Of a DNA stretch of 64,000 nucleotides, positions 7,166 to 36,094 are shown in pieces. Under the pieces are notes generated by a model. That model ran no database searches. It was not told the DNA's origin and was given only the letters and a program-made list of their open reading frames with translations. Positions within the stretch are counted from its first letter, which is position 1, and the number at the start of each line of letters is the position of its first letter. The stretch covers positions 242,944 to 306,943 of the forward strand of contig JAQULK010000001.1 in the NCBI GenBank assembly GCA_028718635.1. The letters are read 5' to 3'. Position numbers and translations under genes: made by a program. Source of the DNA: Minisyncoccota bacterium. Its GTDB lineage: Bacteria; Patescibacteriota; Minisyncoccia; Phycocordibacterales; UBA9973.

Positions 7166-7168
7166 AAA

Positions 7169-7699: not shown

Positions 7700-7759
7700 G
7701 GAATATTAGCTTATTTGGACGTTAAAGTCAAACATTATGTGCAATTTCAACAAAATGGC

Positions 7760-7786
7760 TTGACTTAATTATTTGCATAGTATATC
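7760..7786 (+). promoter_or_regulatory. candidate promoter upstream of the toxin-antitoxin-like cassette (-35 TTGACT; -10 TATATC or TAGTAT)
   Basis: TTGACT at 7760-7765. The spacing to the -10 candidates is ambiguous. Confidence 0.3.
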
Positions 7787-7844
7787 ATTATTGATATCTT
7801 ACGATAAATAAGAAAATTGTAGGTCGAATATTAAAAATAACTAT

Positions 7845-8198: not shown

Positions 8199-8199
8199 C

Positions 8200-8610: not shown

Positions 8611-8613
8611 AAA

Positions 8614-9087: not shown

Positions 9088-9102
9088 ATAAATAATTAAA
9101 TC

Positions 9103-9129
9103 AAAAAACACCCTGCAGGGTGTTTTTTG
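9103..9129. terminator. bidirectional rho-independent terminator (AACACCCTG-CAGGGTGTT flanked by A-run and T-run)
   Basis: Hairpin plus T6 on the + strand after the 8614 gene. The A-run on the other side makes it usable by minus-strand ssrA. Confidence 0.7.
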
Positions 9130-9135
9130 ATTTTG

Positions 9136-9532
9136 TGGAGATGGGGGAAATTGAATCCCCGTGCAGAAGGTTATTGTAAAGAAGTCTACATATATAGCGC
9201 GCTTTTTTGTTTAGATTAAAAAATTCTTAAGCGAGCCAAATATTTTTTAATCGAGTTCTTTTGTTTCGAAAAAAAGTCAGAACAGTCTTTTCTCTATCCC
9301 GATAATATTATGCCTCATCTTATATATCGGAAGTCTATAAGAGAGACACCAGCCGAGCTTACGCGAAGGCTGGAGCGAAAGCGAAATCCTTCATACCGAA
9401 GTAAGGAGAAAGTGCAGCTTTTGCTTTAGCAGTCAATTTTGCAATTAACATTTGGACGAATTTTTACGAGATTACGTCCATGCTCGATATGCATCAATAA
9501 CAAATGGCCAACTGTCTATGCCTGGCATCCCC
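9136..9532 (-). ncRNA. ssrA: candidate tmRNA (ssrA), about 397 nt
   Basis: On the minus strand, 5' GGGGATG pairs with 3' CATCTCC to give a 7-bp acceptor stem (one G-U), followed by discriminator A. The T-arm is GGGGA-TTCAATT-TCCCC. An internal ORF GCT AAA GCA AAA GCT GCA ... GCT CCA GCC TTC GCG TAA encodes a tag ending AFAPAFA*. It lies adjacent to smpB. Confidence 0.55.
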
Positions 9533-9559
9533 ATGTTTATAAAAAATGTTGGAACATAT

Positions 9560-9639
9560 CTTTTTCCGGTACGGAATTTTTGAAGCTTAAAAATTCCTGA
9601 AGTTCTCGGCTCGACAGCCTCGAAACCCCTGCAAAAGTT
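9560..9639. repeat. 80-bp intergenic repeat, copy 2, bracketed by the 12-bp inverted repeats ATGTTGGAACAT (9546-9557) and ATGTTCCAACAT (9640-9651)
   Basis: About 90% identical to 371-451. It lies between the smpB stop and the predicted ssrA 5' end. Confidence 0.75.
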
Positions 9640-9652
9640 ATGTTCCAACATT

Positions 9653-10096
9653 TTAGTTTTTCAAGGTTCTACGAATCTCGCGATCAGTATCGCGTTTCTT
9701 TATAGTTTCTCGTTTATCAAATTTTTTCTTACCTTTTACTAAAGCAATTTCAACTTTGATTTTTCTGTTTTTATTATACACTGAAATTGGTACTATTGTC
9801 AAACTCTTATTTTTCTCACTTCCTGCCAGTTCCGCTATTTCTTTTTTAGTGAGCAAAAGCTTTCTATTGCGAAGCGGGTCATAGTCTTTGGGTGAGTTTT
9901 TTACTTGGTATGGTGGAATATTTGCATTGATTAAAAATGCTTCCCCTCCACGAATAATAACAAAAGCTCCTTCGAGCGACATTTGCCTTCCACGCACAGA
10001 TTTTACTTCTGTACCCAAAAGCTCAATACCAGTCTCGTATTTTTCCAAGAATTCATAATTGAATCGCGCTTTTCGGTTTTCCGCATAGCTTGCCAT
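9653..10096 (-). CDS. smpB: SsrA-binding protein SmpB
   Basis: RKARFNYEFLEKYETGIELLGTEVKSVR...LLLTKKEIAEL is the canonical SmpB sequence. Confidence 0.9.
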   Translation of the reverse strand: MASYAENRKARFNYEFLEKYETGIELLGTEVKSVRGRQMSLEGAFVIIRGGEAFLINANIPPYQVKNSPKDYDPLRNRKLLLTKKEIAELAGSEKNKSLTIVPISVYNKNRKIKVEIALVKGKKKFDKRETIKKRDTDREIRRTLKN

Positions 10097-10152
10097 AAGT
10101 TTATCTTAGCACAAATTCTTTTTATTTTTTTTTAATTTTCTTTTCATGTATT

Positions 10153-12105
10153 TTGTGCTATTATCATCCTATGGATTTGAATTTTTTCAACAAAAAGGAA
10201 CCAAATAATAAAGGAAAAAAAATTCCACCCAAGAGCAATTTCGGCGGGAATATTGCCGGCGCGATAGTTTTTTTTATGCTCATTACAGCGCTTTATTTAG
10301 TGGTGTCTGGAGACGGGAAAACAACTCCCCAAGTTTCGATTTCTGAATTAGCCAATAGTGTCGTGGCAGGGAATGTCAAAACCATCTTAGTGGAAGGGGA
10401 TAAGCTCACTATCACTTATCAAAATGGCGATGTTAAAGAATCTAAAAAAGAAGTCGGCGCGCCGCTTTCGCAAACACTTTTTGATTATGGGGTAACATCT
10501 GCCGCGATTGCAAAAACAGACATTCAAATAAAAAACGAGAGTGGTTTTATGTTTTGGCTGGTAAATTTGCTGCCGTTTATTTTGCCGATAATTTTTATTT
10601 TAATTTTCTTTTGGTATTTGTCTCGGCAAGTCAAGGGCGCAGGAATGCAGGCTTTTACTTTTGGACAATCCAAAGCTCGTCTCACGAATCCGGATGATAA
10701 AAACAATCGGGTCACCTTTAAAGATGTGGCTGGTTGCAAAGAGGCTAAAGAAGAATTAAAAGAAATAGTAGATTTCTTAAAAAGTCCCAAAAAGTTTTTA
10801 GATATTGGAGCCAGAATTCCCAAAGGAGTCATTTTAACCGGCGCCCCAGGGACTGGCAAGACTTTGCTCGCGCGAGCAGTGGCAGGAGAAGCGAACGTGC
10901 CATTTTTTCATCTTTCTGGAAGTGAGTTTGTGGAAATGTTTGTCGGAGTCGGAGCTTCTAGAGTGCGAGATCTTTTTAAAATGGCCAAAAAAGCGGCGCC
11001 TGCTATTATTTTCGTAGATGAAATAGACGCCATAGGCCGTACTCGCGGAGGAGGATTCGGAGGAGGGAATGACGAACGCGAACAGACCTTAAATCAAATT
11101 TTAGTAGAGATGGATGGTTTTGAGCCGAACGACAAAGTAATAGTGATGGCAGCGACTAATAGGCCAGACGTGCTAGATCCGGCACTCATTCGTCCAGGGC
11201 GTTTTGATCGAAAAGTTATGCTTGATTTGCCTGATCGTACCGATCGCGAAGAGATATTGAAAATTCATGCATTAAAAAAACCGTTAGCTGAAGATATAAA
11301 TTTGAAATTGATTGCTGAACGCACTCCCGGTTTTTCCGGCGCGGATTTGTATTCACTTATGAACGAAGGCGCCATCTTGGCGGCTCGAGAAAATCGCAAG
11401 AAAGTTTTTCAATTTGATTTGATTCGCGCGATTGAAAAAGTGATGCTTGGTCCAGAGCGAAAAAGTCATTTACTTTCCAAAAAAGAAAAAGAAATTACTG
11501 CTTACCATGAAGCCGGGCATGCGATCGTGGCATCGGTGCTTCCGCATGCAGATCCGGTGCACAAAGTTTCTATTATCGCTCGCGGAAATGCCGGGGGATA
11601 TACTTTAAAGTTACCGCTTGAAGAACGACGTTTGCAATCCAAAAAAGAATTTATTGATGACATCGCTATGTCCCTCGGCGGATATGTGGCTGAGCAAATG
11701 ATTTTCGGAGACATCACCACCGGACCGTCGAGTGATTTGCAAGTAGCGACAAATCTAGCGCGAGCGATGGTGACGAGATGGGGGATGTCCGATGTTATCG
11801 GACCGATAGCTTTAGTGGATTCTCCCGGTAGGTCTCAATATGGTGAAATGTCTGCTGAAAAAGAATTTTCTGAAGCCGTTTTCACTAAAGTCGATAGAGA
11901 AGTTTCGAGAATCATAAATGATGGGTTAAAGACTGCGCAAAAAGTGTTGGAAGAAAACAAAAAAGCATTTACCGCCATTGCTTTAAAACTTATAGAAGTG
12001 GAAACTTTAGAACAGGAAGACTACGAGAAAATTTTGGTTGCTCATGGTATTATGTTAAAAAAGAAAGATGTTATAGAAACATCCGTCCTTAGCTCAGTTG
12101 GTTAG
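10153..12105 (+). CDS. ftsH: ATP-dependent zinc metalloprotease FtsH (start possibly at the MDL codon at 10171; the 3' end runs about 23 nt into the tRNA)
   Basis: N-terminal TM segments, AAA module GAPGTGKT...[11 protein letters not shown], and the zinc motif HEAGHA. Confidence 0.9.
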
Positions 12106-12156
12106 AGCACAGAGCTTATACCTCTGGGGTCCTTGGTTCGAATCCAAGAGGACGGA
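12083..12156 (+). tRNA. tRNA-Ile, apparent anticodon TAT (UAU)
   Basis: Manual fold: acceptor CCGTCCT/AGGACGG, D-arm GCTC-AGTTGGTTA-GAGC, anticodon arm CAGAG-CTTATAC-CTCTG, T-arm CTTGG-TTCGAAT-CCAAG, discriminator A. Confidence 0.7.
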
Positions 12157-12220
12157 CACGAAGAGTCTTTTTTAAAAAATCTCTAAAAAGCCAAATGTCA
12201 AGAAGTTTTACATAACATGC

Positions 12221-12248
12221 TTGACTTCTTTACATTTATCTATATACT
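12221..12248 (+). promoter_or_regulatory. sigma70-like promoter (-35 TTGACT, 16-nt spacer, -10 TATACT) ending 6 nt before the ATG, suggesting a leaderless transcript
   Basis: Hexamers read at 12221-12226 and 12243-12248. ATG is at 12255. Confidence 0.45.
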
Positions 12249-22944: not shown

Positions 22945-23158
22945 TTTGCGGGCAGTTTGGTACGTCGCTCAAGCCTTGAGGATCTTCAGATTTGAATGAG
23001 TTTTTTGGAGTCGTGCGAGGATATGCCAGATATATTAAGAAACAGGAGTGATATTGAGAAGAGAGAGCTATTGGGATGTTTGAAGAGTAAAATATTGCTG
23101 GCAATTACGCACAAAAAACAAGCTTAAAATCTAAGCATCTCGTGCTATCTGTTGCTTG

Positions 23159-23247
23159 CGGAGCCGGGCGGATTCGAACCGCCGAGGGGTTTTAAAGCCC
23201 CTGCCTCTTTAGCAAAGAGGTACGTTAGACCACTCTGACACGGCTCC
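23159..23247 (-). tRNA. tRNA-Ser (GCT)
   Basis: Minus-strand fold: acceptor GGAGCCG/CGGCTCC, anticodon arm CCTCT-TTGCTAA-AGAGG, long variable arm, T-arm GGCGG-TTCGAAT-CCGCC, discriminator G. Confidence 0.8.
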
Positions 23248-23317: not shown

Positions 23318-23404
23318 GGAGAGATGGGTGAGTGGTTGAAACCAACAGTTTACTAAACTGTCGTCCCTTTAAAAGGACCGAGGGTTCGAATCCCTCTCTC
23401 TCCG
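23318..23404 (+). tRNA. class II (Ser-type architecture) tRNA with an unusual anticodon loop TTACTAA, apparent anticodon ACT
   Basis: Acceptor GGAGAGA/TCTCTCC, 3-bp D-stem GGT/ACC with loop GAGTGGTTGAA (parallel to E. coli tRNA-Ser), anticodon arm ACAGT-TTACTAA-ACTGT, long variable arm GTCC..GGAC, T-arm GAGGG-TTCGAAT-CCCTC, G73. Confidence 0.6.
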
Positions 23405-23492
23405 CAGTCAGTATTTAGTATCGGAAGACTCTGATGCTCGACACTTTCTTTAGTGTGATAACTATTGGTTTTTAATATATACTTTACTCAGT

Positions 23493-26400
23493 ATGAAGAA
23501 AGTATCACTAACCGAAAAGCTGCAAAAAAGAATTTGGAGGGACGCTAAAGATGCAGCTGGTCCTCGCTATACCAGCGATATAAATGTTGAATTGGAAATA
23601 AAAGATGTATTCGATGGTATTGGTAGGACTGAGAAGATTTTTGAGGAAATTGAAGAATTTAGAAAAAAAATAAGAAGTGCATATAAATCAATCAGTCACC
23701 TAAAAACTTCAGAATATAAAGACGACGTTATAAAAAAGAATCTCAAAAAAATTCAAGCTCTTGGAAAATTTTTCCTAGTAACCACCGAAAAATTTGGCAA
23801 GGACCAGTCTAGAATGATTGATTTAAAATCAATCATTCTAGCAACAAAAAAAATTTCTCCCTATTTTTCTCCTATTGAAAGGAGTATATGGGATTTTGAG
23901 AGAAAGGAGGATGATGAACAAAGGGAAAAAGCAAAGACTGAGAACCGACAGTACTTTGGACATAGCCAGTCGGACGAATTAAGAAAACTTAAAAGCCTTG
24001 AGCATAATCTCAGAGAATTTAGTAGAGGTATTCGAGAAATAGATTATTTTGCAAAAAGTCACAAGGCACAACTTTTAAATAATCCTTTTTTGCTCATCCT
24101 TGGTCAGGCAGGAATGGGGAAAACACATTTGGTATGTGATATAACTAAAAACCGCCTTGAAAATGAACTTCCGCCAACTGTGATTGTTTTAGGTGAAAAA
24201 CTTCTAGACATTCAAGATTCTCTTGGTGCCATATTCAGCGCCGTCTCAATAAAAGGATCTAAGAAAAAGATTTTAAATGAACTTAATGAAAGAGGTAAAA
24301 AAGCAAATCGAAGGGCTTTAATAATTGTTGACGCAATAAATGAAGCTGACAGACGAGGTTGGAAATCGGGAGTGTATAAACTTATTCACGAGGTAAAGAA
24401 TTATCATTGGGTTGGGTTAGTGATGACATGCAGAGTACCCTTCCAGTTTCTATACCTTCCAAAAAAGTTAAAAATAATAACGGAATATCATCAAGGTTTT
24501 CAAGACAACGAGTTAGAGGCCATGACTGCATTCTTTAATTTTTACGGTTTATCTTTACCTCAAGTGCCACTTCTTATATCCGAGTTTAGTAGCCCACTAT
24601 TCCTTAGTTGTTTTTGTAGAACGGCGAGAGATATTAAAGGTGGGAAAGCAAAGGTAGTAAAAGGGATTAATGACCTTGCTTTGGGTCAAGTGGGAATGAC
24701 TAAAATCTTGGAAGATTTCTATATCTCGAAAGAAGAATGGATAGTAAAGAAACACACATCAAAATTCAAAATTCTTATAAAGCAATCTTGGATTTGGCAT
24801 AAATCTGGAGATTGTCTTATAAAGAATATCGCCAAGGTAATGGCAATTAACGGACAACAGTATCTCAAAGAAAACGAAGTGCTTCAGGTTATTAAAGACC
24901 TATCTAATAATAAGTATTCATTCATAACATGCTCAAAAGTTTTAAAAATTTTAATAGAAGAAGGAGTACTAATTCGAGATGCAGCTTGGGATGATCAAAC
25001 AAAAAAATATTTTGACGTATTCAAATTCTCTTTTCATAAATTTAGTGACCATATAATTGCAAGATATCTCTTGGGGGGATTTTTTGACAGCAAAAAGATA
25101 ACAGCTAGTCTCCATGCTTCAAATTCTCTTGGTAACCTTTTTTCTTCAGAAGAAAGTATATTAAGAAACATAGGATTGATTGAAGCTCTGATGGTTGAAT
25201 TTCCAGAAAGAATAAAGAAAAATCCAAAATTAACAGAAAGTGACTTAATTGATTACATACCAGAAACACTCAAGGCTGATTCTCAAATCATGTCAGCTTT
25301 TATCGAAAGCTTATATTGGAGGAAGCCTGAGAATTTCCTAAACACTAAAGGACTAATCAAAAAGTCTATAGTTGATTATATAAATAAAACGCTTCTACGT
25401 TACGAAAACTCTTCTCGGGAATTTTTAAACCTATTTGTTGCAACAGCCACAAAACCATTCCATCCCTTTAACTCAAAAATGCTCAACAAATATTTATTGA
25501 AATTCTCGCTTACTGATAGAGATTTAATCTGGTCTGAATATGTAAGAAAACAATATGGTTCAGGCAGTATATATAAACTAATTTCTTGGATTGAAAATCA
25601 AACTCTTGAAAAAATTACGGCTGACCAAGCTGCTTCTGTAATTACAGTATTATCATGGGCGTTGGGAACAAACGTTAAATTACTGAGAAATAGAGCTACA
25701 CGGTGTTTGTATATTGTTGGCAAGATTCATCCGGAGGAATTTTTTAAATCTCTTCAAGAAATTATACACATAAACGACCCTTATATCCGAGAACGAATTC
25801 TATCCGTAGGGTATGGAATTGCAATGGCGATTGAGGACCTAGATAAAAAGCTAATTTCAAAAGTCTTATTTCCTAATGCTAAAACTATTTATGCTCTTTT
25901 TTTTAAAAAAGGAGCTAAGTTGGGTTCAACAAATGTTCTCATCAGAGACTATGTTCGAGGTATTATTGAGGTAGCGTTATATCATAATGAGAAATTACTT
26001 TCACCTGCTCAAATAAGACGTGTTAGACCACCCTATACTGACGGTGGCACCCGCAAATGGGGTCGCAACCTAGACAAGGATGAAGGCAAATATCGAGATG
26101 GTAATTCACCTTTAGGGTGGGAGTTTGAAAAAGACACTTTAAGACACCTTGTTGGTAGTCAAGCTTATGATGATAAGGACAAGAATTACATTCGTCTAAA
26201 AGAAAACATGATGTGGCGACTTTATCAGCTTGGCTATTCTCTTGAAAAATTTGGCGAAATTGATAAAGAAATTGTTCGTAATACAAGATACGATGGACCT
26301 CAAAACTATGCTGGAAAAATAGAAAGATATGGAGAAAAATATTCTCTTATCGCATATCATGAAATGCTAGGTATTAAGCTAGATAAAAAGAAGTTGGACC

Positions 26401-27392
26401 GTTGGTGGTACACAGAAGATGGGAGAAACAGTGAGTTTGAAGTAGATGCTAGTTTTCCACAAACACCGAAACGAAATAAATTATTTTCAAAAGATCTGAC
26501 CTCTGGTCCAACAGATATTAAGAAATGGATGGTTCAGAAAAATCCTCCTGATATTTCCAATTATTTAGAAATTGATAAGATTGATGGCCTTCCAGGCCCT
26601 TGGATTTTAGTTGATGGAATTATTGGGGAGAAAAATACAAATAAAAGTCGAAAAGTCACAACTTTTATTTATGGTATTCTTGTAAATGAGGTAAATGAGA
26701 AAAAAATCGAGGAATTCATGGCAAAGACTCCATTTCCAGGAAATGATAATATCCCTTCTCTACCTGAAACCAGAGAAGTTTTTGCAGGAGAGCTTGGATG
26801 GAGAGAGAAAAATACACCAGATCCAAATTTATATATCAAAATTAAACGAGGAGAAATACAAAAAAAACTTACGGAAAAAGAAAAAAGGTTCCATTCTATC
26901 CGATTCGCTTTCTTTGGAGAAAAGGAAGTTGTCCAAAAGAAACAATCACTACCAGAATTTAAAACAGAAACTATATATGAAGAGATACCAATACAGCGTC
27001 TTGCAAGATGGTTTGTATCAAAGGATTACACCTACATTAAAGATAACGATACAACCGGACTACATTTATTGAGTAAGAAAATAGTAAAAAAATATAAACT
27101 GCATTGTGCTCCAGCATCATTCAATATCTTGAACGCCAAGAGAGAAGTTGTTGCTATTCCTGTTTCTGTAGGAAATCAATATGGCACACATGAGAACCTA
27201 CTCTATGCAAGAAAAGATTTAGTTGATCTTATATTAAAAGAGAGCGGTAAAAAGATGCTTATTGTCACTTGGGGCGAAAGACAATATTGGCCAGAAAATT
27301 TAGATGACATACACCGAACTGACCATAGAAGCATAATTGAAAAACGTGAGAATATATACAAACAAAACTACAGCTATCCTTTTAAAAAGTAA
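23493..27392 (+). CDS. giant (1299 aa) P-loop NTPase, STAND/AAA-like (Avs/NACHT-like architecture), a candidate defense protein
   Basis: Walker A LILGQAGMGKTHL and Walker B RALIIVDAINEAD at about aa 195-290, with an N-terminal domain of about 190 aa and a C-terminal helical region of about 900 aa. Confidence 0.5.
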   Translation: MKKVSLTEKLQKRIWRDAKDAAGPRYTSDINVELEIKDVFDGIGRTEKIFEEIEEFRKKIRSAYKSISHLKTSEYKDDVIKKNLKKIQALGKFFLVTTEKFGKDQSRMIDLKSIILATKKISPYFSPIERSIWDFERKEDDEQREKAKTENRQYFGHSQSDELRKLKSLEHNLREFSRGIREIDYFAKSHKAQLLNNPFLLILGQAGMGKTHLVCDITKNRLENELPPTVIVLGEKLLDIQDSLGAIFSAVSIKGSKKKILNELNERGKKANRRALIIVDAINEADRRGWKSGVYKLIHEVKNYHWVGLVMTCRVPFQFLYLPKKLKIITEYHQGFQDNELEAMTAFFNFYGLSLPQVPLLISEFSSPLFLSCFCRTARDIKGGKAKVVKGINDLALGQVGMTKILEDFYISKEEWIVKKHTSKFKILIKQSWIWHKSGDCLIKNIAKVMAINGQQYLKENEVLQVIKDLSNNKYSFITCSKVLKILIEEGVLIRDAAWDDQTKKYFDVFKFSFHKFSDHIIARYLLGGFFDSKKITASLHASNSLGNLFSSEESILRNIGLIEALMVEFPERIKKNPKLTESDLIDYIPETLKADSQIMSAFIESLYWRKPENFLNTKGLIKKSIVDYINKTLLRYENSSREFLNLFVATATKPFHPFNSKMLNKYLLKFSLTDRDLIWSEYVRKQYGSGSIYKLISWIENQTLEKITADQAASVITVLSWALGTNVKLLRNRATRCLYIVGKIHPEEFFKSLQEIIHINDPYIRERILSVGYGIAMAIEDLDKKLISKVLFPNAKTIYALFFKKGAKLGSTNVLIRDYVRGIIEVALYHNEKLLSPAQIRRVRPPYTDGGTRKWGRNLDKDEGKYRDGNSPLGWEFEKDTLRHLVGSQAYDDKDKNYIRLKENMMWRLYQLGYSLEKFGEIDKEIVRNTRYDGPQNYAGKIERYGEKYSLIAYHEMLGIKLDKKKLDRWWYTEDGRNSEFEVDASFPQTPKRNKLFSKDLTSGPTDIKKWMVQKNPPDISNYLEIDKIDGLPGPWILVDGIIGEKNTNKSRKVTTFIYGILVNEVNEKKIEEFMAKTPFPGNDNIPSLPETREVFAGELGWREKNTPDPNLYIKIKRGEIQKKLTEKEKRFHSIRFAFFGEKEVVQKKQSLPEFKTETIYEEIPIQRLARWFVSKDYTYIKDNDTTGLHLLSKKIVKKYKLHCAPASFNILNAKREVVAIPVSVGNQYGTHENLLYARKDLVDLILKESGKKMLIVTWGERQYWPENLDDIHRTDHRSIIEKRENIYKQNYSYPFKK

Positions 27393-27397
27393 AAAAA

Positions 27398-28717
27398 TTA
27401 ATCAATCAAAGTAAGAACTTTTACAGTAATTTTTATTTTAGACTTAAAACATCCCATCAGCTCTCGCTTTTCTTGATTGGTGCCTTCTTTAAAAATATAC
27501 TTGGCATAAGTTCTTAAATCTATGTCTTCGTGCTTAGTCTTTGAATTTTGGACTCCCAATACTCCTTTTTGAAATCTATTATGCCGCTTCAATTCATCCT
27601 CAAATTTATGTTGTATCCCAATTTTATTCAGATCCACCTTATCTAGACTAATAAGGAGTTGATCAATTAATTCTTCTTCCCTCATATATGGGTTCTTGCA
27701 ATGTCGATCCCTTGATCTTCCGCATCCATAGTAAATATACTTAGCTACCGTTCCATCTTTTAGTTGTTTGTATTTCTCTTCAGCTGATATTCCAGAGCCA
27801 CATAGTCCGCAGGTCATTAATTTTGTAAAGGCAAACTCATGACTTTGTCGTATAATATTGTCTCTTTTTAATTGTGCCTGCACTTGTTCAAATAATTCTT
27901 TAGTGACTATTGGTTCATGTTTGCCTGCGTACCAATTACCTGATTTTTTTGGATACTCAAATGTTCCATAATAGAATGGGTTCATCAAAGTTCGGTAAAT
28001 ATTTCCAAGTGCTAGGTTTTTATTTCCTATTGTCTTGAAATTTAATTCAAACTTAAGCCACTGATGTACCTTTCTGCCGGACCATTTATCGTATGCAACT
28101 TTTTCGTACATTTTCTTTATGATATGCCCACGATCAGGATCAATAATTACCTGACACTTTTTATCCATAAGTTTTTGATTAAGATATCCAGTTGGTGCCA
28201 CTCCAGGCCATAACCCCATCTCTACTCTTGTTCTCAACCCTCGCTTCACATTAATTCCTCGATTATCATTTTCAAGTTTTGCTTGTCCACATAAAATCAT
28301 CAACATGAATTTGTCGTTTGGCGAGTTCATGAACCGTTGACCAAATGTTCGGATGTCTTGCAATAAATTCGCATCCATTAAGTCTACAATTTTCCCAAGA
28401 TCGCCCGCGTTACGACTGATGCGGTCAGGAGCCCACGTCAAAATTCCATTGAATTTTCCTTGCTTTAGTTCTTCAATAATTTCGTTAAAGACTGGTCGTT
28501 GTCCGGTTTCTTTTGCACTATGTGATTCTCTTTTCATTGTAATAACCTCTAATCCCTCACGATCTGCGAGTTGTAACATCTCCTTAATTTGGCTGTCTAT
28601 GCTCAAAACCTGCCGTTCTTCAGACTCAGTGCTTTTTCTTGCATAAAGGCAGTATTTTACCTTTATGGGAGTTGCTTGTTTGACCGTCACTCCAGTCGGC
28701 ATTTGCATCGTATTCAT
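27398..28717 (-). CDS. large serine recombinase (resolvase/invertase-type catalytic domain plus recombinase and zinc-ribbon domains)
   Basis: YARKSTESEERQVLSIDSQ (catalytic Ser region), a resolvase fold, and a C-terminal CGLCGS...YYGC zinc ribbon. Confidence 0.8.
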   Translation of the reverse strand: MNTMQMPTGVTVKQATPIKVKYCLYARKSTESEERQVLSIDSQIKEMLQLADREGLEVITMKRESHSAKETGQRPVFNEIIEELKQGKFNGILTWAPDRISRNAGDLGKIVDLMDANLLQDIRTFGQRFMNSPNDKFMLMILCGQAKLENDNRGINVKRGLRTRVEMGLWPGVAPTGYLNQKLMDKKCQVIIDPDRGHIIKKMYEKVAYDKWSGRKVHQWLKFELNFKTIGNKNLALGNIYRTLMNPFYYGTFEYPKKSGNWYAGKHEPIVTKELFEQVQAQLKRDNIIRQSHEFAFTKLMTCGLCGSGISAEEKYKQLKDGTVAKYIYYGCGRSRDRHCKNPYMREEELIDQLLISLDKVDLNKIGIQHKFEDELKRHNRFQKGVLGVQNSKTKHEDIDLRTYAKYIFKEGTNQEKRELMGCFKSKIKITVKVLTLID

Positions 28718-28834: not shown

Positions 28835-30142
28835 ATGGAGAACTTTAACGATAAATTTTTACTTTCTTTTGAAAAAGAATTTAATATCAATTATCCAAAA
28901 ATTAACTCTGCAACATATAAGAGTCTTGTTAATTATGCTTCTGATTTAGATTTACCAATACAAAGCTGGTATCGCTACAAGGAAGGATACTCGATTAAGC
29001 TAGTTGATCAAGTTCTTACTAAGTACAATGTAAAACAAGGCGACCTAATAGTCGACCCTTTTTGTGGTAGTGGAAGTACTCTTTTACAAGCCAAAATAAA
29101 TAGATGTAACAGCATTGGTTTTGAGATAAATCCTTTTTCTGCATTTTTAGCAAAAGTAAAGACTCAAGATTATAAAAAACAAGATATTTTAATATTTAAT
29201 GAAAATGTAATTGAACTTAAAAAAGTGACAAGTAAACAGAACGTTGATATTCCAAAACTTTCAACAATTGAACAACTTTTTGAAAAAAAAGCACTATTTT
29301 ATCTTTTAACTTTAAAAGATAAAATTAATAAAATAAAAAATAAAAAAGTTTCTAATTTACTGATGCTCGCTTGGTTGGGTATTCTTGAAGAAGCATCAAA
29401 TTATAAAAAAGCTGGTAATGGTTTAAAGTTCCGTAAAACTATTAAAAAAACACTTCGAGATCAGGAGTATGTAAGAAAAATATTCTTTAAGGCAATCGAT
29501 AATATAAAAAATGATTTAGATTTTGCGGTTAAGATATCTAACAAGGTAGATACAGAGGTCATTGAAGACTCTTGTTTTAATTTAAATAAATACACAAAAA
29601 AAAATTCTATAAAAGGTGTTATTTTTTCACCCCCTTATGCTAATTGTTTTGACTATACAGAAATATATAAAGTAGAACTTTGGATGGGTTCTTTTGTAAA
29701 AGAATACTCTGATTTAAAAGTTTTACGAAAGAAAGGTATTAGATCTCATTTAAATGGATATGAAATAGAATCTAAGCTTGCAGTAAAAAGCGTTCCAGAG
29801 TTAGGAGCATTAGTGAAGGAACTTTCTTTAAAAAAACTTTGGGATAAAAGAATTCCAAAGATGATAGAAGCATACTTTAATGATATGTTTCGTTCAATGG
29901 CTGAAATATATAAAGGATTAAAAAAGAATGGGTTTTGTGTAATTATTGTTAGTAATTCTGCATATGGAGGAATAGTTATCCCAACTGATCTATTATTAGC
30001 AAAATTCGCTAAGCATTTAGGTTTTAAGGTTTCTTCAATTGATGTTGCTCGTAACATTATTACTAGTTCACAACAATACAAAGAAACCGAAAAATACCGT
30101 GGTTACTTAAGAGAAAGTATCATTTACTTGGAAAAAAAATAG
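28835..30142 (+). CDS. DNA methyltransferase (alpha-class N6-A/N4-C), motif I DPFCGSGST, motif IV SPPY
   Basis: LIVDPFCGSGSTLLQA at about aa 70 and VIFSPPYANCFDY at about aa 265. Confidence 0.7.
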   Translation: MENFNDKFLLSFEKEFNINYPKINSATYKSLVNYASDLDLPIQSWYRYKEGYSIKLVDQVLTKYNVKQGDLIVDPFCGSGSTLLQAKINRCNSIGFEINPFSAFLAKVKTQDYKKQDILIFNENVIELKKVTSKQNVDIPKLSTIEQLFEKKALFYLLTLKDKINKIKNKKVSNLLMLAWLGILEEASNYKKAGNGLKFRKTIKKTLRDQEYVRKIFFKAIDNIKNDLDFAVKISNKVDTEVIEDSCFNLNKYTKKNSIKGVIFSPPYANCFDYTEIYKVELWMGSFVKEYSDLKVLRKKGIRSHLNGYEIESKLAVKSVPELGALVKELSLKKLWDKRIPKMIEAYFNDMFRSMAEIYKGLKKNGFCVIIVSNSAYGGIVIPTDLLLAKFAKHLGFKVSSIDVARNIITSSQQYKETEKYRGYLRESIIYLEKK

Positions 30143-30144
30143 AA

Positions 30145-31440
30145 ATGGAAAAAGATGAAAAAGAGAAAATTATAGAAGTAACTAATATCCCAGCAAAACC
30201 AAAAGACGGGGATGTTTTTTTAATAAAAGCATTTGGTATTTCAAGTTTTACTCATGGCATTTTTAAGTACCCATGTAAATTCATACCACATATCCCACGT
30301 TGGTTTATAGAAAATTATGCTTCAACTGATACAAAAAAATATGGTGTAATAGATCCATTTATGGGTTCAGGAACAACTCTCGTAGAAGCTTCTTTGTTAG
30401 GTTATCCTAGTTATGGTATTGATATTGATCCATTAAGTAAATTATTGAGTAATGTTAAAACCACACCATTTTATGATAGAGAATTTTCTATTATTGATCA
30501 ATTTATCTCTGATTATAAAATAACAATAAAAAAGCCTGATCAATTAAAAAATAAGATTGAGGAGTTTGTTCCTGATAGGGATTTAATTAATTACTGGTTT
30601 TCTGAGTCTACAATTAAAGATCTCGCACTTATTCGTTTTCTAATTCAAAAAAACTTTACTCAATTTAAGAATAAAAAGGTAAAAAACTTTCTTGAAATTG
30701 TATTGGCTTCTATAATACGAAAAGTTTCTAAGGCGGATAATCAATCACCTAAACCGTATATTTCAACTAAAATAAAAAAAGATCACGTTATTGTGTTTGA
30801 TGAATTTTATAAAAACCTAATTAAGTATATAGATTCAATTAAGCAGTTTTCAGATGAATCAAAAGCAGAGGTAAAAATAATTGGATTTGACGCAAGAAGT
30901 GTTGATAAAAAATCTCTCTATTTTAATAAGGTTAGTTTAGCAATGACATCACCACCTTATATAAATGCCTTCGATTATGTTCGTTCCTTAAAGCTAGAAA
31001 ACTTTTGGCTTGATGGTTTTAGTAAACAAAAGTTAGATGAACTTTATGATCATCAGATTGGCTCAGAAAAAGTAAAAACTTTAAAAGAAGTTCCTGCATA
31101 TGGAATTAAAGAACTTGATTCTGTATTGGCTCAAATATATTTATTAGACAAAAAAAGAGCATGGATTACTTTTAAGTATTTTCAGGCAATGACAGAAAAT
31201 CTAAAATCTATACATGATTCTCTTCAAAAAGGAGGATATTATTGCATAGTTGTAGGAAACAGTAAAATAAGAGGATTTGATGTTGATACAGCTAGTATTT
31301 TGTTAAAAATAGCAAAAGATGTAGGATATAAAAAGAAGCTTGTCTTTTCTTATATAATAAGAAATAGATACCTTCGTATCCCAAGATCTGGTCGAGGTGG
31401 ATTTATCCCTAAAGACTATGTATTAGTTTTTGAAAAATAA
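30145..31440 (+). CDS. second DNA methyltransferase (alpha-class), motif I DPFMGSGTT, motif IV SPPY
   Basis: IDPFMGSGTTLVEA and AMTSPPYINAFDY. It starts 3 nt after the first methyltransferase gene. Confidence 0.7.
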   Translation: MEKDEKEKIIEVTNIPAKPKDGDVFLIKAFGISSFTHGIFKYPCKFIPHIPRWFIENYASTDTKKYGVIDPFMGSGTTLVEASLLGYPSYGIDIDPLSKLLSNVKTTPFYDREFSIIDQFISDYKITIKKPDQLKNKIEEFVPDRDLINYWFSESTIKDLALIRFLIQKNFTQFKNKKVKNFLEIVLASIIRKVSKADNQSPKPYISTKIKKDHVIVFDEFYKNLIKYIDSIKQFSDESKAEVKIIGFDARSVDKKSLYFNKVSLAMTSPPYINAFDYVRSLKLENFWLDGFSKQKLDELYDHQIGSEKVKTLKEVPAYGIKELDSVLAQIYLLDKKRAWITFKYFQAMTENLKSIHDSLQKGGYYCIVVGNSKIRGFDVDTASILLKIAKDVGYKKKLVFSYIIRNRYLRIPRSGRGGFIPKDYVLVFEK

Positions 31441-33145
31441 TTTTATGACACGAACAAGGAGTTTAGAAATTTGGCATATACCAAAGAGACAAAATATCCA
31501 TCAAATTATTGGTTCTGTAGAAATCTTATCTCAAGATAGTTTTAATGGAAAATCTTGGACTTCAATGAAACAAGAAGCTTTTAATACTCTTCTTGGGAAA
31601 CATGGCTTAACTAAAAGAGGTAGACCTTTATCTCCATCAGCAAGAAGAACATTAGAGGCCCTAATTAAATATTTAGGTTTTATTGTTATCGATAATTCCA
31701 CAACACCTTCAACAATACATGTAACAAATGCAGGTTTTGAGCTAATAAAAAAACACGGTTCCGTTTTGGGTTTAGGAAAAAATTTAACTATTGTTTCTGG
31801 TAATGGAAAAGAAATTTTGGAATCTAAGGTTGTGGAACACCAAATGAATAAGTTGCAAATTACGAATCCTGTAATAAAGGAGGATTGTGTAAATATTCTT
31901 CTTTTCCCATTTCGTGTTACCTTAAAACTTTTATTAGAACTCGAATCCCTTTCGAAGGAAGAATTAGGATACATTGTTTTCTCAATGAAAAAGGAAGATG
32001 AGTATAAATTAATTATTGAAAAAATTAAAACTTTTAGACAACTACCAGAGAAACGAAGAAAAGCAGAAATTGATGCTTTTAAAAATACTGAGGTTGGTAA
32101 TCTTACTTTAGTACAAGCACCTACCGCAGGTTACTATATTGGTCTTTGTGTTGCTACAGGTTTATGTGAAAGAAAATCTAGTGATTTATGTATAAAAGTA
32201 GATAAAAAAGAAGAAATACTTTTAATCCTTGAAAAATACAAAAATATTAGACCATTTGATTTTGGAGATAATTTAAGACTTTGGATTGAATATTTTGGTG
32301 ATTTCAAAAGAATACGGCCACCATTACTTGTTAATGTTCACATTAACTTACCTGAAAAATGCTATGTTCGTGTTTATAACCACGAAAATAAAGAAACTTC
32401 TTCTGGTGTTGTTTCGGGTTCTTTATCCTTTGGCGCCGCTCTTTTTGAAAATGAAGAGTATAAATTTGATTTTTTTAGTTTTAGTGATGCAACACTTTTT
32501 TACTCTGAAAAGAAAAAAATTAAATCAGATACTATTAAATTTTTACTCCCCACGGTGAAAAAAGCTATACAAGGAGATGATACACAAGAAATATTAGAGA
32601 AGAAAATTTTAGAGCTTATAGCTAGTAAAGATTATGATTCTTTATATGGTCATCATATATCTATAGTTAGTTCAATTACCGGTAAGAATAATTTTAATAC
32701 TGCCCAACTTAGGGGTGGCCGACTAGAATATTTATTTTTTAAATTACTTCAAAAGTATAAAGACTTAGGTAAAATCGATGATGTTATATGGAATGGTCGG
32801 GTTGATGAATTTGGAATTATGTATCCAGCATTGGGTGGTAAAGAAGGATATCCGGATGTATATTTTTTTATAAAACAAAATGTTTATGTTCTAGAACTTA
32901 CAACAATAAGGGCTAATGCAATGCAGTGGTCTGCGGAAGGAGGTTCCGTGCACGATCACATAATGAACCTTCAAAAGAAAATCGGTACTCAGTATTTTAC
33001 TCATGGTATTTTTTCTGCACCAACTATTGCACCAAGAATTGAGGGAATGTATAAACACATCGCTACAAAAGAAGATACTCCTCATCACACAATACCAATT
33101 GAAGCATTGATAAAGGAACTTAAAAAGTTGCCGAATATTTTTTAA
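31430..33145 (+). CDS. hypothetical 571-aa protein, a candidate restriction endonuclease partner of the two methyltransferases
   Basis: It overlaps the second methyltransferase gene by 11 nt (operon). The C-terminal GYPDVYFF...VLELTTIR is weakly PD-ExK-like. No firm motif. Confidence 0.3.
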   Translation: MKNNFMTRTRSLEIWHIPKRQNIHQIIGSVEILSQDSFNGKSWTSMKQEAFNTLLGKHGLTKRGRPLSPSARRTLEALIKYLGFIVIDNSTTPSTIHVTNAGFELIKKHGSVLGLGKNLTIVSGNGKEILESKVVEHQMNKLQITNPVIKEDCVNILLFPFRVTLKLLLELESLSKEELGYIVFSMKKEDEYKLIIEKIKTFRQLPEKRRKAEIDAFKNTEVGNLTLVQAPTAGYYIGLCVATGLCERKSSDLCIKVDKKEEILLILEKYKNIRPFDFGDNLRLWIEYFGDFKRIRPPLLVNVHINLPEKCYVRVYNHENKETSSGVVSGSLSFGAALFENEEYKFDFFSFSDATLFYSEKKKIKSDTIKFLLPTVKKAIQGDDTQEILEKKILELIASKDYDSLYGHHISIVSSITGKNNFNTAQLRGGRLEYLFFKLLQKYKDLGKIDDVIWNGRVDEFGIMYPALGGKEGYPDVYFFIKQNVYVLELTTIRANAMQWSAEGGSVHDHIMNLQKKIGTQYFTHGIFSAPTIAPRIEGMYKHIATKEDTPHHTIPIEALIKELKKLPNIF

Positions 33146-33585: not shown

Positions 33586-34242
33586 ATGAAAACACAACAG
33601 AGTGTAATTCAAGATTTATTTCTTGAATATGGGCTACTCAATTCGGATCTCACAATCAACGAATTAAAAATTAAACCAATCTTGGCAAAATTAAAGAAGG
33701 GTCTAAAACAGTATTTAAGTATTCAGCGAAGCGTTAATATTACGGATACAAGCAAAGATATCTTGTTCCAAGAAATGTTTAGTAATTTTTATGGTTTTGA
33801 TCGAAATAGAGATAGCGCTTGGAAAAAAGAATATTTTAATTTGTTTGAAACATTAAAAATAAAAGACAGAGATTTCAAGAAAACACTTGAAGGAGTGTAT
33901 ACAAAAACAAATAAAATAGAGCCGTCATTTTCCAGTAAGCTTTTAGCAACTCTTAATCCTGATTTACCTGTAATAGATAAGTGGATACTAAAAAATCTTT
34001 CTCTTGAAAAGGAATCTCAAAAAATAAGCAGACTGAAAGATGTATCAGAGCGACTTAATGAAACTGAAAATTTGTACAAAAAATTGTCAGAAATGTTTGA
34101 AGAATTTATAACCACAAAAGGTGCAGATAATTTATTTGATCGCTTTGTTTCTGAATATCCTTTCACTAATACAACACAAAATTCCAGCCTAACGAAAGCT
34201 AAGATGCTTGATCTCATACTTTGGCAATTACGAAGGAAATAA
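33586..34242 (+). CDS. hypothetical protein
   Basis: 218-aa ORF with no motif. Confidence 0.3.
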   Translation: MKTQQSVIQDLFLEYGLLNSDLTINELKIKPILAKLKKGLKQYLSIQRSVNITDTSKDILFQEMFSNFYGFDRNRDSAWKKEYFNLFETLKIKDRDFKKTLEGVYTKTNKIEPSFSSKLLATLNPDLPVIDKWILKNLSLEKESQKISRLKDVSERLNETENLYKKLSEMFEEFITTKGADNLFDRFVSEYPFTNTTQNSSLTKAKMLDLILWQLRRK

Positions 34243-34246
34243 TACC

Positions 34247-34768
34247 TTATTCCCAACTTTCTCTGGGTCTTTTGTTTCTTTCCCTTGCATTTTTTAAAAT
34301 ACTTTTCATAAGTGCATCTTTTTCTTTTTTTGCTTTTGGATTTGACAATCTTGTGACCTCTGCCTTTATTCTTTGTTTCATTTCTTGTTCTTTATTTTCT
34401 TTTTCGACAGCTACACGAATGCAAAGTTCACAGACTTCTGATTCATCATTGTGTTGATGTACGAAAAGTGGAGGAGGATCAATATTCCGCTTTGGAGCAT
34501 ATTTTGGATTATTGTTAATTAGATGAAATTTGATTGCTGGAAAGTATCCTTCCTTTAGTTTCTTTGCCAACCCCATTTCTGCAATTTCATCTATTTGAGA
34601 CACTCCTGCTTTCATGGCAACATTCACTTCTCGTCTGAATTCAGGACTATCCTTCATCCATCGGTAAATTGTAGCCCTCGAAATACCCGTCTTTTTGGAG
34701 GCGAACGAGATCCATGGAGATTCACGAAGAATCTCCAAAAACTTTGATTTTTCATAATTATGTTTCAT
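34247..34768 (-). CDS. HTH-containing small protein (phage terminase-small-subunit/Psq-like HTH)
   Basis: ISFASKKTGISRATIYRWMKD HTH. It lies directly downstream of the ParB-methyltransferase gene. Confidence 0.4.
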   Translation of the reverse strand: MKHNYEKSKFLEILRESPWISFASKKTGISRATIYRWMKDSPEFRREVNVAMKAGVSQIDEIAEMGLAKKLKEGYFPAIKFHLINNNPKYAPKRNIDPPPLFVHQHNDESEVCELCIRVAVEKENKEQEMKQRIKAEVTRLSNPKAKKEKDALMKSILKNARERNKRPRESWE

Positions 34769-36094
34769 TTAAGATAATTTAATCCTTCTTTTACCAGTGA
34801 ACTTCTCCCAGCGATTAATAATAACTTCTGTGTAGACTGGAGACTTCTCCATGACAAAACATCTACGTTTTAGCTTTATTGATGCAATTAACGTCGAACC
34901 TGATCCGCCAAATGGCTCAAGCACTAATTGATCCCTAGTCGTTAGAACTTTGATATATGGAATTAAGATTTCTAACGGTTTGGTTCCAAAGATAATGCCT
35001 TGTCCTGATGATTTTTCGTCAGCGGCAAGATGTTCAATATGATCTGTGGGACAATATTTTTTACCTTTACCATAGCTTTCCCATTGAGGACTGCCTGAGA
35101 TAGCAAACAGAGCCGTATTATATTCATTCTCCAGTAATTCTTCCTCGATTTCAGTCTGCAAGCCCTCATGCTGTTCGCTAGTTGCCACCATCGCAATATC
35201 GTACTTCGAGAAAAATTTATGCTTACCCGCATATCCTTGGTTTCTGTTAGCAAGATGCCACACGAGCATATTTTTAACTTTCCAATACTTTTCCATTTCA
35301 TTCCAAATGGTCCTGATATTTTTCCAGTTCTCATAACAAATAATGGAAAAATCTTCTGCTTGTACTTTATGCACATTCGCCATCCATAATTCAGTAAAAT
35401 TATCAGGCAAGACATCAGTTTCAAGATATCGTCTATTTTTCTTTGCGCCAAATCCTTCAGTCGCTTTCCCTTGGCGGCTTTTTCCATGGAGATAATCTAA
35501 AATATATGGCGGATCAGTCATAACCATATCTATTTTATCTTCACCACAGAGCTTTAACATATCTGCTTCTACCGTACTATCGCCACACATAACTTTTGAA
35601 CCATCTAAGTCATACACATCTCCTTTTTCAACAGTTATCTTTTCGATATTTAATTTTTCTAGCTCTTTGTTTAGGTCGAATTGTTCTTCCACTTTGTCTT
35701 CTTCAAAGATGCTGTCTATGTCCTCAGAAGTAAAACCGACATCTGCGAGGAATGCTTCGTCGAACTTAGCTAAAAGATTAAAGTCAAACTCTCCAGTATT
35801 TTTGTTAAGCCTGATATTTAGTTCTTTTTCTTTTTCGATATCAGGAATATTAATGTAGACAACTGGCACTTCTTCAATACCAAGTTCCTTGATCACAGAC
35901 AATCTAAAGTGACCTCCGATAACAACATTTTTTCTTTCTTCGGCAGAATTCACAAGTAGTGGATCTACTATACCGAATTTTTTAATACTTTCTTTTAACT
36001 GACTCTCTGCTTCTTTATCCCATTTTCTAGGATTATATTCTGCAATCTTGAGTTCGCTTACAACCACATGCACTATTTTTATTTTTTCTGGCAT
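34769..36094 (-). CDS. ParB-like nuclease domain fused to an N6-adenine/N4-cytosine DNA methyltransferase (DPPY)
   Basis: The N-terminal ParB/Srx-like region VHVVVSELKIAEYNPRKWD...GIVDPLLVN and MVMTDPPYILDY are common in phage/plasmid methyltransferases. Confidence 0.7.
   Translation of the reverse strand: MPEKIKIVHVVVSELKIAEYNPRKWDKEAESQLKESIKKFGIVDPLLVNSAEERKNVVIGGHFRLSVIKELGIEEVPVVYINIPDIEKEKELNIRLNKNTGEFDFNLLAKFDEAFLADVGFTSEDIDSIFEEDKVEEQFDLNKELEKLNIEKITVEKGDVYDLDGSKVMCGDSTVEADMLKLCGEDKIDMVMTDPPYILDYLHGKSRQGKATEGFGAKKNRRYLETDVLPDNFTELWMANVHKVQAEDFSIICYENWKNIRTIWNEMEKYWKVKNMLVWHLANRNQGYAGKHKFFSKYDIAMVATSEQHEGLQTEIEEELLENEYNTALFAISGSPQWESYGKGKKYCPTDHIEHLAADEKSSGQGIIFGTKPLEILIPYIKVLTTRDQLVLEPFGGSGSTLIASIKLKRRCFVMEKSPVYTEVIINRWEKFTGKRRIKLS

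What the first reader, a model, noticed from the sequence alone, without database searches (positions are those of the whole stretch)
23493..27392. Giant 1299-aa P-loop NTPase with Avs/STAND-like tripartite architecture immediately after the tRNA
Walker A GQAGMGKTHL and Walker B ALIIVDAINEAD sit at about aa 195-290. They are preceded by an unassigned N-terminal domain of about 190 aa and followed by about 900 aa of helical, repeat-like sequence. This layout (effector-like N-terminus, NTPase, sensor) matches antiphage STAND NTPases. The gene lies next to a recombinase and a restriction-modification-like module. The specific effector domain is unrecognised and could represent a new variant.
Basis: partly seen in the sequence, partly recalled or inferred. 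Interest (0 to 1): 0.66.

Follow-up and report, generated by a model that had tools for sequence, protein, structure and literature searches.

The report
Effector-less Avs2 antiphage sensor
The giant ATPase next to the tRNA belongs to the known Avs2 family of bacterial antiviral sensors, but it and a large, widespread group of relatives lack the toxic "effector" domain these proteins normally carry, so how they stop phages is an open question.

Summary
The 1299-aa ORF (23493..27392, +) and its Walker A/B motifs are real. It is a homolog of Avs2, a STAND NTPase that senses phage terminase (PADLOC Avs2 E=1e-184; PDB 9o4e EcAvs2 E=6e-80; profile-profile probability 100% over query 1-1299 vs EcAvs2 160-1484).

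This is not a truncation. In a query-biased sample, 176 of 241 near-full-length relatives share the short layout, across CPR bacteria, many other bacterial phyla and archaea. All domains are under purifying selection. No partner gene is conserved (no neighbour family in more than 6 of 49 loci).

In the window the gene heads a ~13-kb island that follows a tRNA pair. It forms a co-inherited two-gene unit with a convergent serine recombinase, and a type II R-M system lies next to it.

Verdict: known family, uncharacterised effector-less variant. The output mechanism is inferred only; direct trapping of terminase is the most likely.

The parts
23493..27392 (+). Complete gene for a 1299-aa short-form (effector-less) Avs2-family STAND NTPase
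   Evidence: ORF. PADLOC Avs2 PDLC02164 E=1e-184. NCBIfam NF041813 584 bits, below the 1000-bit cutoff. PDB 9o4e EcAvs2 E=5.6e-80. hhalign probability 100%, query 1-1299 vs Ec 160-1484.
23493..24080 (+). aa 1-196: all-alpha helical extension/insertion specific to Avs2, part of the sensor-ATPase core and not an effector
   Evidence: Aligns to EcAvs2 160-340. AF2 predicts helices 8-25, 35-44, 47-68, 78-100, 111-124, 126-149, 161-188 and 190-196 with pLDDT mostly 85-97. Pfam gives only a sub-threshold HEPN_Apea hit. The GPRYT..NV motif at aa 23-32 is near-invariant family-wide.
24081..25172 (+). aa 197-560: STAND NTPase module (NBD-HD1-WHD). Walker A K210 at nt 24102-24125, Walker B D280/E284 at nt 24318-24344, sensor-1 R314, WHD H520.
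   Evidence: AF2 pLDDT 87. Foldseek hits to NLRC4, NOD2, NLRP3, Avs4, MalT and Cdc6/ORC. Catalytic residues identical to EcAvs2 K348/D417/E421/R452/H642 and invariant in the clade.
25173..26417 (+). aa 561-975: helical TPR-like part of the sensor
   Evidence: Aligned to the EcAvs2 TPR region. Helical in the AF2 model of aa 850-1299. About 100 aa shorter than EcAvs2 around Ec 990-1095.
26520..27389 (+). aa ~1010-1299: beta-rich C-terminal sensor domain of the Avs2/Avs3 type (binds the terminase ATPase domain in solved homologs)
23318..23405 (+). tRNA-Ser with the unusual anticodon ACT, 88 nt upstream of the gene; marks the island edge
   Evidence: ARAGORN. Rfam tRNA 59 bits. Cloverleaf fold.
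23158..23247 (-). tRNA-Ser (GCT), divergent from the other tRNA
   Evidence: ARAGORN. Alignment of the two tRNAs.
27398..28717 (-). Large serine recombinase, convergent with the Avs2 gene and co-inherited with it as a two-gene unit
   Evidence: Pfam Resolvase+Recombinase+Zn_ribbon_recom. phrog_95 integrase E=3e-64. One 5.07-kb DNA homology block (window 23509-28529) with L011. 57% aa identity to the recombinases at the same position in L011 and L013.
28835..33145 (+). Neighbouring type II restriction-modification system (two methyltransferases plus an endonuclease); low G+C of 27-30%
   Evidence: PADLOC MTase_II 5.6e-94 and 2.8e-93, REase_II 1.2e-104. Composition.

Best explanation
The gene encodes a short-form member of the Avs2 family of antiviral STAND NTPases. 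It contains the Avs2-specific helical extension, an intact ATP-binding and oligomerising NBD-HD1-WHD module, a TPR-like helical sensor and the beta-rich C-terminal sensor that Avs2 and Avs3 use to grip the ATPase domain of the phage large terminase. It lacks the N-terminal effector domain that canonical Avs proteins use to kill the cell. By homology it should bind a conserved phage protein, most likely the large terminase, and then assemble into an ATP-bound oligomer. Because there is no fused effector and no conserved partner gene, my best inference is that binding itself is the output: the oligomer traps and inactivates the terminase and so blocks genome packaging without host suicide. The gene travels as cargo of tRNA-adjacent integrative islands, here coupled to a serine recombinase.

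What is shown: homology, domain anatomy, absence of an effector, conservation, and mobility context. What is inferred: antiphage role (about 0.8), terminase as the ligand (about 0.55), and sequestration as the output (about 0.3-0.35).
For: Family: PADLOC Avs2 E=1e-184; NCBIfam Avs2 6.7e-175; PDB 9o4e EcAvs2 5.6e-80, and 3e-141 with a clade profile; hhalign probability 100% over query 1-1299 vs Ec 160-1484.

Intact ATPase: K210, D280, E284, R314 and H520 are identical to the EcAvs2 catalytic residues and invariant in 30-39 homologs. The AF2 model shows an NBD-HD1-WHD fold.

No effector: the ORF cannot extend upstream. The N-terminus is the helical extension. There is no enzyme fold in the C-terminus.

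Not a truncation accident: 96 of 129 near-full-length top representatives and 176 of 241 sampled family members are short; whole clades are short, with at least 12 short/long switches. pN/pS is 0.13-0.33 in every domain with saturated synonymous sites.

No partner: no neighbour family in more than 6 of 49 short loci, and 28 of 49 have no operonic neighbour.

Defence/mobile context: R-M next door and a recombinase unit; tRNA-adjacent in homolog loci; R-M genes beside other short forms.

Published mechanism of homologs: PMC13601566 and bioRxiv 10.64898/2026.08.25.746987.
Against: No experiment exists on any short form. In the canonical Avs proteins tested, deleting or mutating the effector abolished cell death (PMC13581612), so binding alone is not known to be sufficient for defence. 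Most bridging-ATP residues of EcAvs2 (T1128, R1130, R1132, E1364) are not clearly conserved. The sensor half is divergent: it matches only positions 1-778 of the NCBIfam profile, so the ligand could be another phage protein. Strict conservation of the ATPase motifs is not required for simple sequestration. An unlinked effector elsewhere in the genome cannot be excluded from a 64-kb window.
Confidence: 0.6

Rival explanations
1. Sensor-only STAND that signals to an effector encoded elsewhere. After ligand binding, the tetramer brings four N-terminal helices together and recruits or activates an unlinked host or island protein, or it nucleates hetero-oligomers with another STAND, as NAIP does with NLRC4 or plant sensor NLRs do with helper NLRs.
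For: The ATPase/oligomerisation motifs are strictly conserved. In solved Avs2 tetramers the N-termini of the ATPase domains converge (PMC13601566). Some Avs2 systems use a separate second protein, for example MBL in Avs2-trypsin-MBL (bioRxiv 10.64898/2026.08.25.746987) and Avap1/2 in KpAvs2 (PMC11564622). One MAG carries two short paralogs.
Against: No conserved neighbour in 49 short-form loci, and 28 of 49 are stand-alone. The linked genes that do occur are heterogeneous. All 32 CPR-clade members are short, so no effector-bearing helper of this family is evident in that clade. Defence partners are normally co-localised.
Confidence: 0.25
2. One reading: a canonical tripartite Avs whose N-terminal ~190 aa is a new, unrecognised effector domain.
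For: The region has no Pfam assignment above threshold. There is a weak HEPN_Apea hit (E=0.0026, 18.6 bits against a 24.4-bit cutoff) at aa 13-79.
Against: The region aligns with EcAvs2 160-340, which lies downstream of that protein's effector and is resolved as a helical extension contacting the terminase (PMC13601566). The same segment is present in Mrr-bearing and EcAvs2-type homologs after their effectors. AF2 predicts eight helices with no catalytic fold. No HEPN Rx4-6H motif is present in the matched stretch.
Confidence: 0.04
3. A non-defence or decaying relic: an Avs2 derivative that lost its effector and now has no immune role, has a regulatory role, or acts as a dominant-negative decoy protecting a mobile element's terminase from host Avs2.
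For: Effector loss would disable the canonical killing mechanism (PMC13581612). The gene rides with a recombinase on a mobile island.
Against: The ORFs are intact and under purifying selection in all domains. The short clades are deep and broad. There is no DNA-binding domain. No relatives were found on viral contigs. No long-form Avs2 was seen in the CPR clade that a decoy could poison.
Confidence: 0.08

Closest known systems
EcAvs2 (PDB 9o4e; Evans et al. 2026, PMC13601566)
   Same: Homologous over query 1-1299 vs Ec 160-1484 (probability 100%). Both have the helical extension, a STAND ATPase with identical catalytic residues, a TPR-like sensor, and a beta-rich C-terminal sensor with the shared motifs (ER/DRxGKKYxWIAYxE, DxDP, GE[KR]).
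   Different: The query lacks the ~160-aa N-terminal effector. It is about 100 aa shorter around Ec 990-1095 and has a ~27-aa insertion in the C-terminal domain. Identity is only 24-28%. The bridging-ATP residues T1128/R1130/R1132/E1364 are not clearly conserved. It scores 584 bits against the 1000-bit equivalog cutoff, where EcAvs2 scores 1691.
VcAvs2-trypsin-MBL and KpAvs2 (Mrr nuclease) systems (bioRxiv 10.64898/2026.08.25.746987; PMC11564622)
   Same: The same Avs2 core, including the helical insertion that is essential in VcAvs2. The ligand in those systems is the terminase ATPase domain.
   Different: Those proteins carry an N-terminal trypsin or Mrr effector, and some have accessory genes (MBL; Avap1/Avap2). 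The query has neither an effector nor accessory genes.
SeAvs3 (PDB 8dgc)
   Different: SeAvs3 has a different TPR architecture and a Cap4 nuclease effector, is 2028 aa long, and shows no detectable sequence-level match in the PDB searches.
Mrr-bearing long forms of the same subclade (e.g. Poribacteria, L064)
   Same: The same divergent sensor subtype as the query, with motifs RIRPPYTDGGIR, DRYGKKYSWIAY and DIDPSFP. They score similarly low on NCBIfam (352 bits).
   Different: They carry an N-terminal 'SFEELCYQIAK' Mrr-type domain of about 170 aa and are often embedded between hsdM and hsdS.

Membership tests
Avs2 (AVAST type 2) sensor/NTPase family | Significant full-length sequence homology to Avs2 models or structures | tested here: met
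   PADLOC Avs2 1e-184. 9o4e hit at 5.6e-80, and 3e-141 with a clade profile. hhalign probability 100% over query 1-1299 vs Ec 160-1484.
Avs2 (AVAST type 2) sensor/NTPase family | Passes the curated NCBIfam equivalog threshold (NF041813, 1000 bits) | tested here: not met
   584 bits, matching only profile positions 3-778. EcAvs2 scores 1691 bits. Other short forms and an Mrr-bearing member of the same subclade score 352-494 bits. The query is a divergent subclade, not an equivalog.
Avs2 (AVAST type 2) sensor/NTPase family | Avs2-specific alpha-helical extension/insertion preceding Walker A | tested here: met
   Aa 22-196 align to Ec 181-340. AF2 predicts an all-helical region with high pLDDT.
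Avs2 (AVAST type 2) sensor/NTPase family | TPR-like helical sensor plus beta-rich C-terminal sensor shared with Avs3 | tested here: met
Avs2 (AVAST type 2) sensor/NTPase family | Residues coordinating the bridging ATP and the terminase (Ec D981, T1128, R1130, R1132, E1364, E1444, E1462) | tested here: inconclusive
   D981 maps to E877, E1444 to invariant E1262, and E1462 to D1277. The T1128/R1130/R1132 loop aligns ambiguously (the clade conserves R932 and D934). E1364 maps to K1177.
Avs2 (AVAST type 2) sensor/NTPase family | Recognition of the phage large terminase; antiphage activity | not testable with these tools
   Needs co-expression, binding or plaque assays, or complex prediction with cognate phage terminases.
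Canonical tripartite Avs architecture (effector-NTPase-sensor) | N-terminal (or other fused) effector domain that executes cell death | tested here: not met
   The protein starts about 20 aa before the conserved core. An upstream extension is impossible. No effector fold is present in the N- or C-terminal models. Canonical homologs have 160-200 extra N-terminal residues.
STAND NTPase superfamily | P-loop NBD with Walker A/B and sensor-1 Arg, followed by a helical domain and a winged-helix domain with a conserved His | tested here: met
   K210, D280/E284, R314 and H520 are invariant. AF2 shows NBD-HD1-WHD. Fold hits to NLRC4, NOD2, NLRP3, Avs4 and MalT (and to the related Cdc6/ORC). Pfam NACHT/nSTAND6/AAA_16 hits are only sub-threshold.

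The most novel reading that the evidence does not exclude
Short-form Avs2 proteins are self-sufficient, non-suicidal immune proteins. The STAND sensor is itself the effector: it uses ATP-driven oligomerisation to trap, and partly unfold, the phage large terminase, and so blocks DNA packaging without killing the host. This mode would suit slow-growing, tiny-genome CPR bacteria, and it spreads as a minimal 'sensor plus serine recombinase' mobile unit.
Probability: 0.3. Interest if true: 0.7.

Novelty: new variant of a known kind. Interest (0 to 1): 0.5.

Why it matters
Avs/NLR-like immunity is currently understood as a sensor that switches on a fused killing domain, and in every tested Avs the effector was required for cell death. 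Here a large group of Avs2-like proteins has no effector and no conserved partner. The group is phylogenetically deep, spans CPR bacteria, many other bacterial phyla and archaea, and is under purifying selection. This raises a directly testable question: can a STAND pattern-recognition receptor defend by target capture alone, or does it use unlinked helpers as plant and animal sensor NLRs do? It also flags an annotation gap. These proteins fall below the NCBIfam Avs2 cutoff and are labelled hypothetical, while HMM-based defence finders would label them 'Avs2' and imply a mechanism they cannot have. For CPR biology it adds a phage-sensing system that rides on tRNA-adjacent islands in genomes of about 0.7 Mb.

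Tried and rejected
2. HEPN_Apea-like N-terminus. Rejected: the hit is sub-threshold, there is no Rx4-6H motif, and the segment is the conserved start of the Avs2 core.
3. Mis-called start or a truncation caused by the tRNA or the island. Rejected: there is an in-frame stop upstream, and dozens of homologs start at the same place.
4. Conserved partner gene. Neighbour clustering over 49 loci and an operonic-neighbour test found none.
5. att-site repeats for the island. Only short, chance-level repeats were found. The best is an 11-nt exact core at 23099 and 34222, and it was not pursued.
6. Phage-borne homologs. None were found in the viral contig collection.
7. Literature on effector-less Avs. 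Phrase searches found nothing. Gao et al. 2022 (Science) is not in the held library, so prior mention there cannot be excluded.
8. Promoter and terminator scans gave counts no higher than shuffled controls.
9. Housekeeping-ATPase rival. The Cdc6/ORC fold hits are generic, and no synteny is conserved.
Full report
**Observation.** The ORF 23493..27392 (+) is real and encodes 1299 aa. Its ATG is the first start codon after an in-frame stop, so it cannot be longer at the 5' end. A tRNA-Ser gene ends 88 nt upstream, and a second tRNA-Ser lies divergently before it. A large serine recombinase converges on the gene's stop codon with a 5-nt gap. Two type II methyltransferases and a type II endonuclease follow. 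An exact sequence match identifies the protein as 'hypothetical protein PHT16_01465' of a Candidatus Pacebacteria (CPR/Patescibacteria) MAG, on a 672-kb contig.

**Family.** Pfam gives only sub-threshold P-loop hits. The defence-specific libraries are unambiguous: PADLOC Avs2 E=1e-184 and NCBIfam Avs2 E=6.7e-175. The only solved structure matched by sequence is EcAvs2, PDB 9o4e (E=5.6e-80, or 3e-141 with a clade profile). A profile-profile comparison of the query's clade with canonical Avs2 aligns query 1-1299 to EcAvs2 160-1484 with probability 100%. The protein is therefore homologous to Avs2 over its entire length, but only to the part of Avs2 that lies after the effector.

**Anatomy.**
- Aa 1-196 are predicted as eight helices at high confidence (pLDDT mostly 85-97) and align to EcAvs2 160-340. 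[quoted passage not shown] The VcAvs2-trypsin paper describes it as an Avs2-specific helical insertion of the STAND domain that is required for defence (bioRxiv 10.64898/2026.08.25.746987).
- Aa 197-560 form an NBD-HD1-WHD module. It has fold matches to NLRC4, NOD2, NLRP3, Avs4 and MalT, and to the related Cdc6/ORC. K210, D280, E284, R314 and H520 are identical to EcAvs2 K348, D417, E421, R452 and H642, and they are invariant among homologs.
- Aa 561-975 are helical (TPR-like).
- Of the published ligand-contact residues, E1444 maps to the invariant E1262 and D981 to E877. The remaining bridging-ATP residues are not clearly conserved.

**No effector.** Canonical Avs2 proteins carry 160-200 extra N-terminal residues: an Mrr-type nuclease, a trypsin domain, or the EcAvs2-type unknown domain. 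In those proteins the conserved GxRYTP..NV motif sits at aa ~184-188. In the query it is at aa 23-32. Neither terminal model contains an enzyme-like fold.

**Not an accident.**
- About 35 full-length homologs at 26-73% identity share the 1290-1325-aa layout.
- An exhaustive search of 1.84 billion cluster representatives returned 3,059 relatives. Among the 129 near-full-length proteins in the top 150, 96 start in register with the query (median 1291 aa) and 25 carry an N-terminal extension of more than 110 aa (median 1508 aa).
- A scan of species-representative genomes confirmed 282 loci. Of the best 80, 48 are clear short forms. They occur in CPR lineages, Alpha-, Beta- and Gammaproteobacteria (including cultured Chromobacterium, Dyella, Duganella, Kordiimonas and Pseudomonas paralcaligenes), Acidobacteria, Methylacidiphilum, Terrabacter, Elusimicrobia and haloarchaea. 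Thirteen are Mrr-bearing long forms, mostly from Poribacteria.
- On a neighbour-joining tree of 241 members, 176 are short. Whole clades are short (CPR 32 of 32; another clade 99 of 102). At least 12 short/long switches are needed. This tree is rough and the sampling is biased toward the query.
- Comparison with four CPR orthologs shows saturated synonymous sites and pN/pS of 0.13-0.33 in every domain. The helical extension and the C-terminal sensor evolve fastest.
- The whole subclade, including its Mrr-bearing members, scores 352-584 bits on the NCBIfam Avs2 model (cutoff 1000; EcAvs2 scores 1691) and matches only the first ~778 profile positions. It is therefore a divergent-sensor subclade that automated annotation leaves as 'hypothetical'.

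**No partner.** Five homolog loci inspected by eye share no neighbour. Clustering all flanking ORFs (within 6 kb) of 49 short-form loci found no family in more than 6 loci. Twenty-eight of the 49, including the window, have no same-strand ORF within 120 nt. The tightly linked genes that do occur are heterogeneous: HsdR, YgjP, an R-M methylase, an SF1 helicase-DUF2726 protein and an acyl-CoA dehydrogenase. Several of these are defence genes, which supports a defence-island context but not a dedicated effector.

**Genomic context.** Housekeeping genes flank a ~13-kb accessory segment at ~23.1-36.1 kb. On the left are a class II ribonucleotide reductase, a cobalamin adenosyltransferase, RecG and 6PGD. 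On the right are an inositol monophosphatase, a hydrolase and a sigma factor. The segment contains the tRNA pair, the Avs2-like gene, the serine recombinase, the low-G+C R-M system, an unknown ORF, a small-terminase-like HTH protein and a ParB-methyltransferase fusion.

The Avs2 gene and the recombinase form one 5.07-kb DNA homology block with locus L011 (68% identity). The block begins just inside the Avs2 ORF and ends inside the recombinase gene. The recombinases at the same position in L011 and L013 are 57% identical to the window's. In L009, L011 and L013 the Avs2-like gene lies just downstream of tRNA-Gln, and here of tRNA-Ser. Other homologs lie near tRNA-Lys, -Leu, -Asn and -Glu, with tyrosine or serine recombinases or none. 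The gene is thus mobile cargo of tRNA-adjacent hotspots. No relatives were found on viral contigs.

**Mechanism.** The homology, an intact ATPase, the Avs2/Avs3-type sensor, the absence of an effector or conserved partner, and purifying selection are all shown. [quoted passage not shown] The output step is unknown.
- My leading hypothesis (about 0.3-0.35) is direct capture and inactivation of the terminase. The EcAvs2 structure makes this plausible: the sensor buries 2,800 Å², reaches into the terminase ATPase active site and binds a partly unfolded nuclease domain (PMC13601566).
- Against it, effector mutants of tested Avs proteins lose activity (PMC13581612), and strict ATPase conservation is not needed for simple sequestration.
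- The main rival (about 0.25) is a sensor-only protein that signals to an unlinked helper.

**Novelty and caveats.** The family is known and well studied, so most of the original claim reduces to 'an Avs2 homolog in a defence island'. What is not ordinary is the effector-less architecture and how widespread it is. I found no description of it in the searchable literature. However, Gao et al. 2022 could not be read, so prior mention cannot be excluded. ORF starts in the 80 loci were called mechanically, the tree is approximate, and the 64-kb window cannot exclude an unlinked partner gene.

Noticed in passing
window 23318-23405 (+): The tRNA directly upstream of the gene is a class II tRNA-Ser with anticodon ACT (A34), which is unusual for bacteria. 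It scores 59 bits on Rfam tRNA and folds as a cloverleaf. A normal tRNA-Ser(GCT) lies divergently 70 nt away and is a distinct sequence.
   Followed up: partly
window 12083-12157 (+): tRNA-Ile with anticodon TAT (UAU), rather than the usual lysidine-modified CAU type.
   Followed up: no
window 23509-28529; L011 7011-12040; L013 ~6971-12237: The Avs2-like gene and a convergent large serine recombinase are co-inherited as a compact two-gene unit in three CPR genomes, next to different tRNAs (Ser here, Gln in L011 and L013). This may be a minimal mobile defence element.
   Followed up: partly
window 23099-23126 and 34222-34249: An imperfect direct repeat with an 11-nt exact core (TGGCAATTACG) brackets the tRNAs, the Avs2 gene, the recombinase, the R-M system and ORF 33586-34242. 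It could be an att-like boundary or a chance match.
   Followed up: no
window 28835-33145 (+): A type II R-M system with two methyltransferases and one endonuclease has markedly lower G+C (27-30%) than its surroundings (~36%), which suggests a separate recent acquisition.
   Followed up: no
window 34247-36094 (-): A small-terminase-like HTH protein (34247-34768) and a ParB-N/DNA-methyltransferase fusion (34769-36094) look like phage- or plasmid-derived remnants at the far end of the island.
   Followed up: no
L064, L065, L077, L079, L088 (Poribacteria loci): Mrr-bearing long forms of the same Avs2 subclade sit directly between a type I R-M hsdM gene (upstream) and an hsdS gene (downstream). 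This arrangement was seen in 7 of 13 long-form loci and 3 short-form loci.
   Followed up: partly
L002 and L004 (MAG GCA_040384045.1): One CPR MAG carries two diverged short-form paralogs (P0012 and P0026) in different recombinase-associated, tRNA-adjacent islands.
   Followed up: no
window 23353-23404 (-): A sub-threshold Rfam hit to 'Plastid-psbl-rps4' (58.1 bits against a gathering score of 68) lies on the antisense strand of the tRNA and is most likely an artefact of tRNA-like sequence.
   Followed up: no
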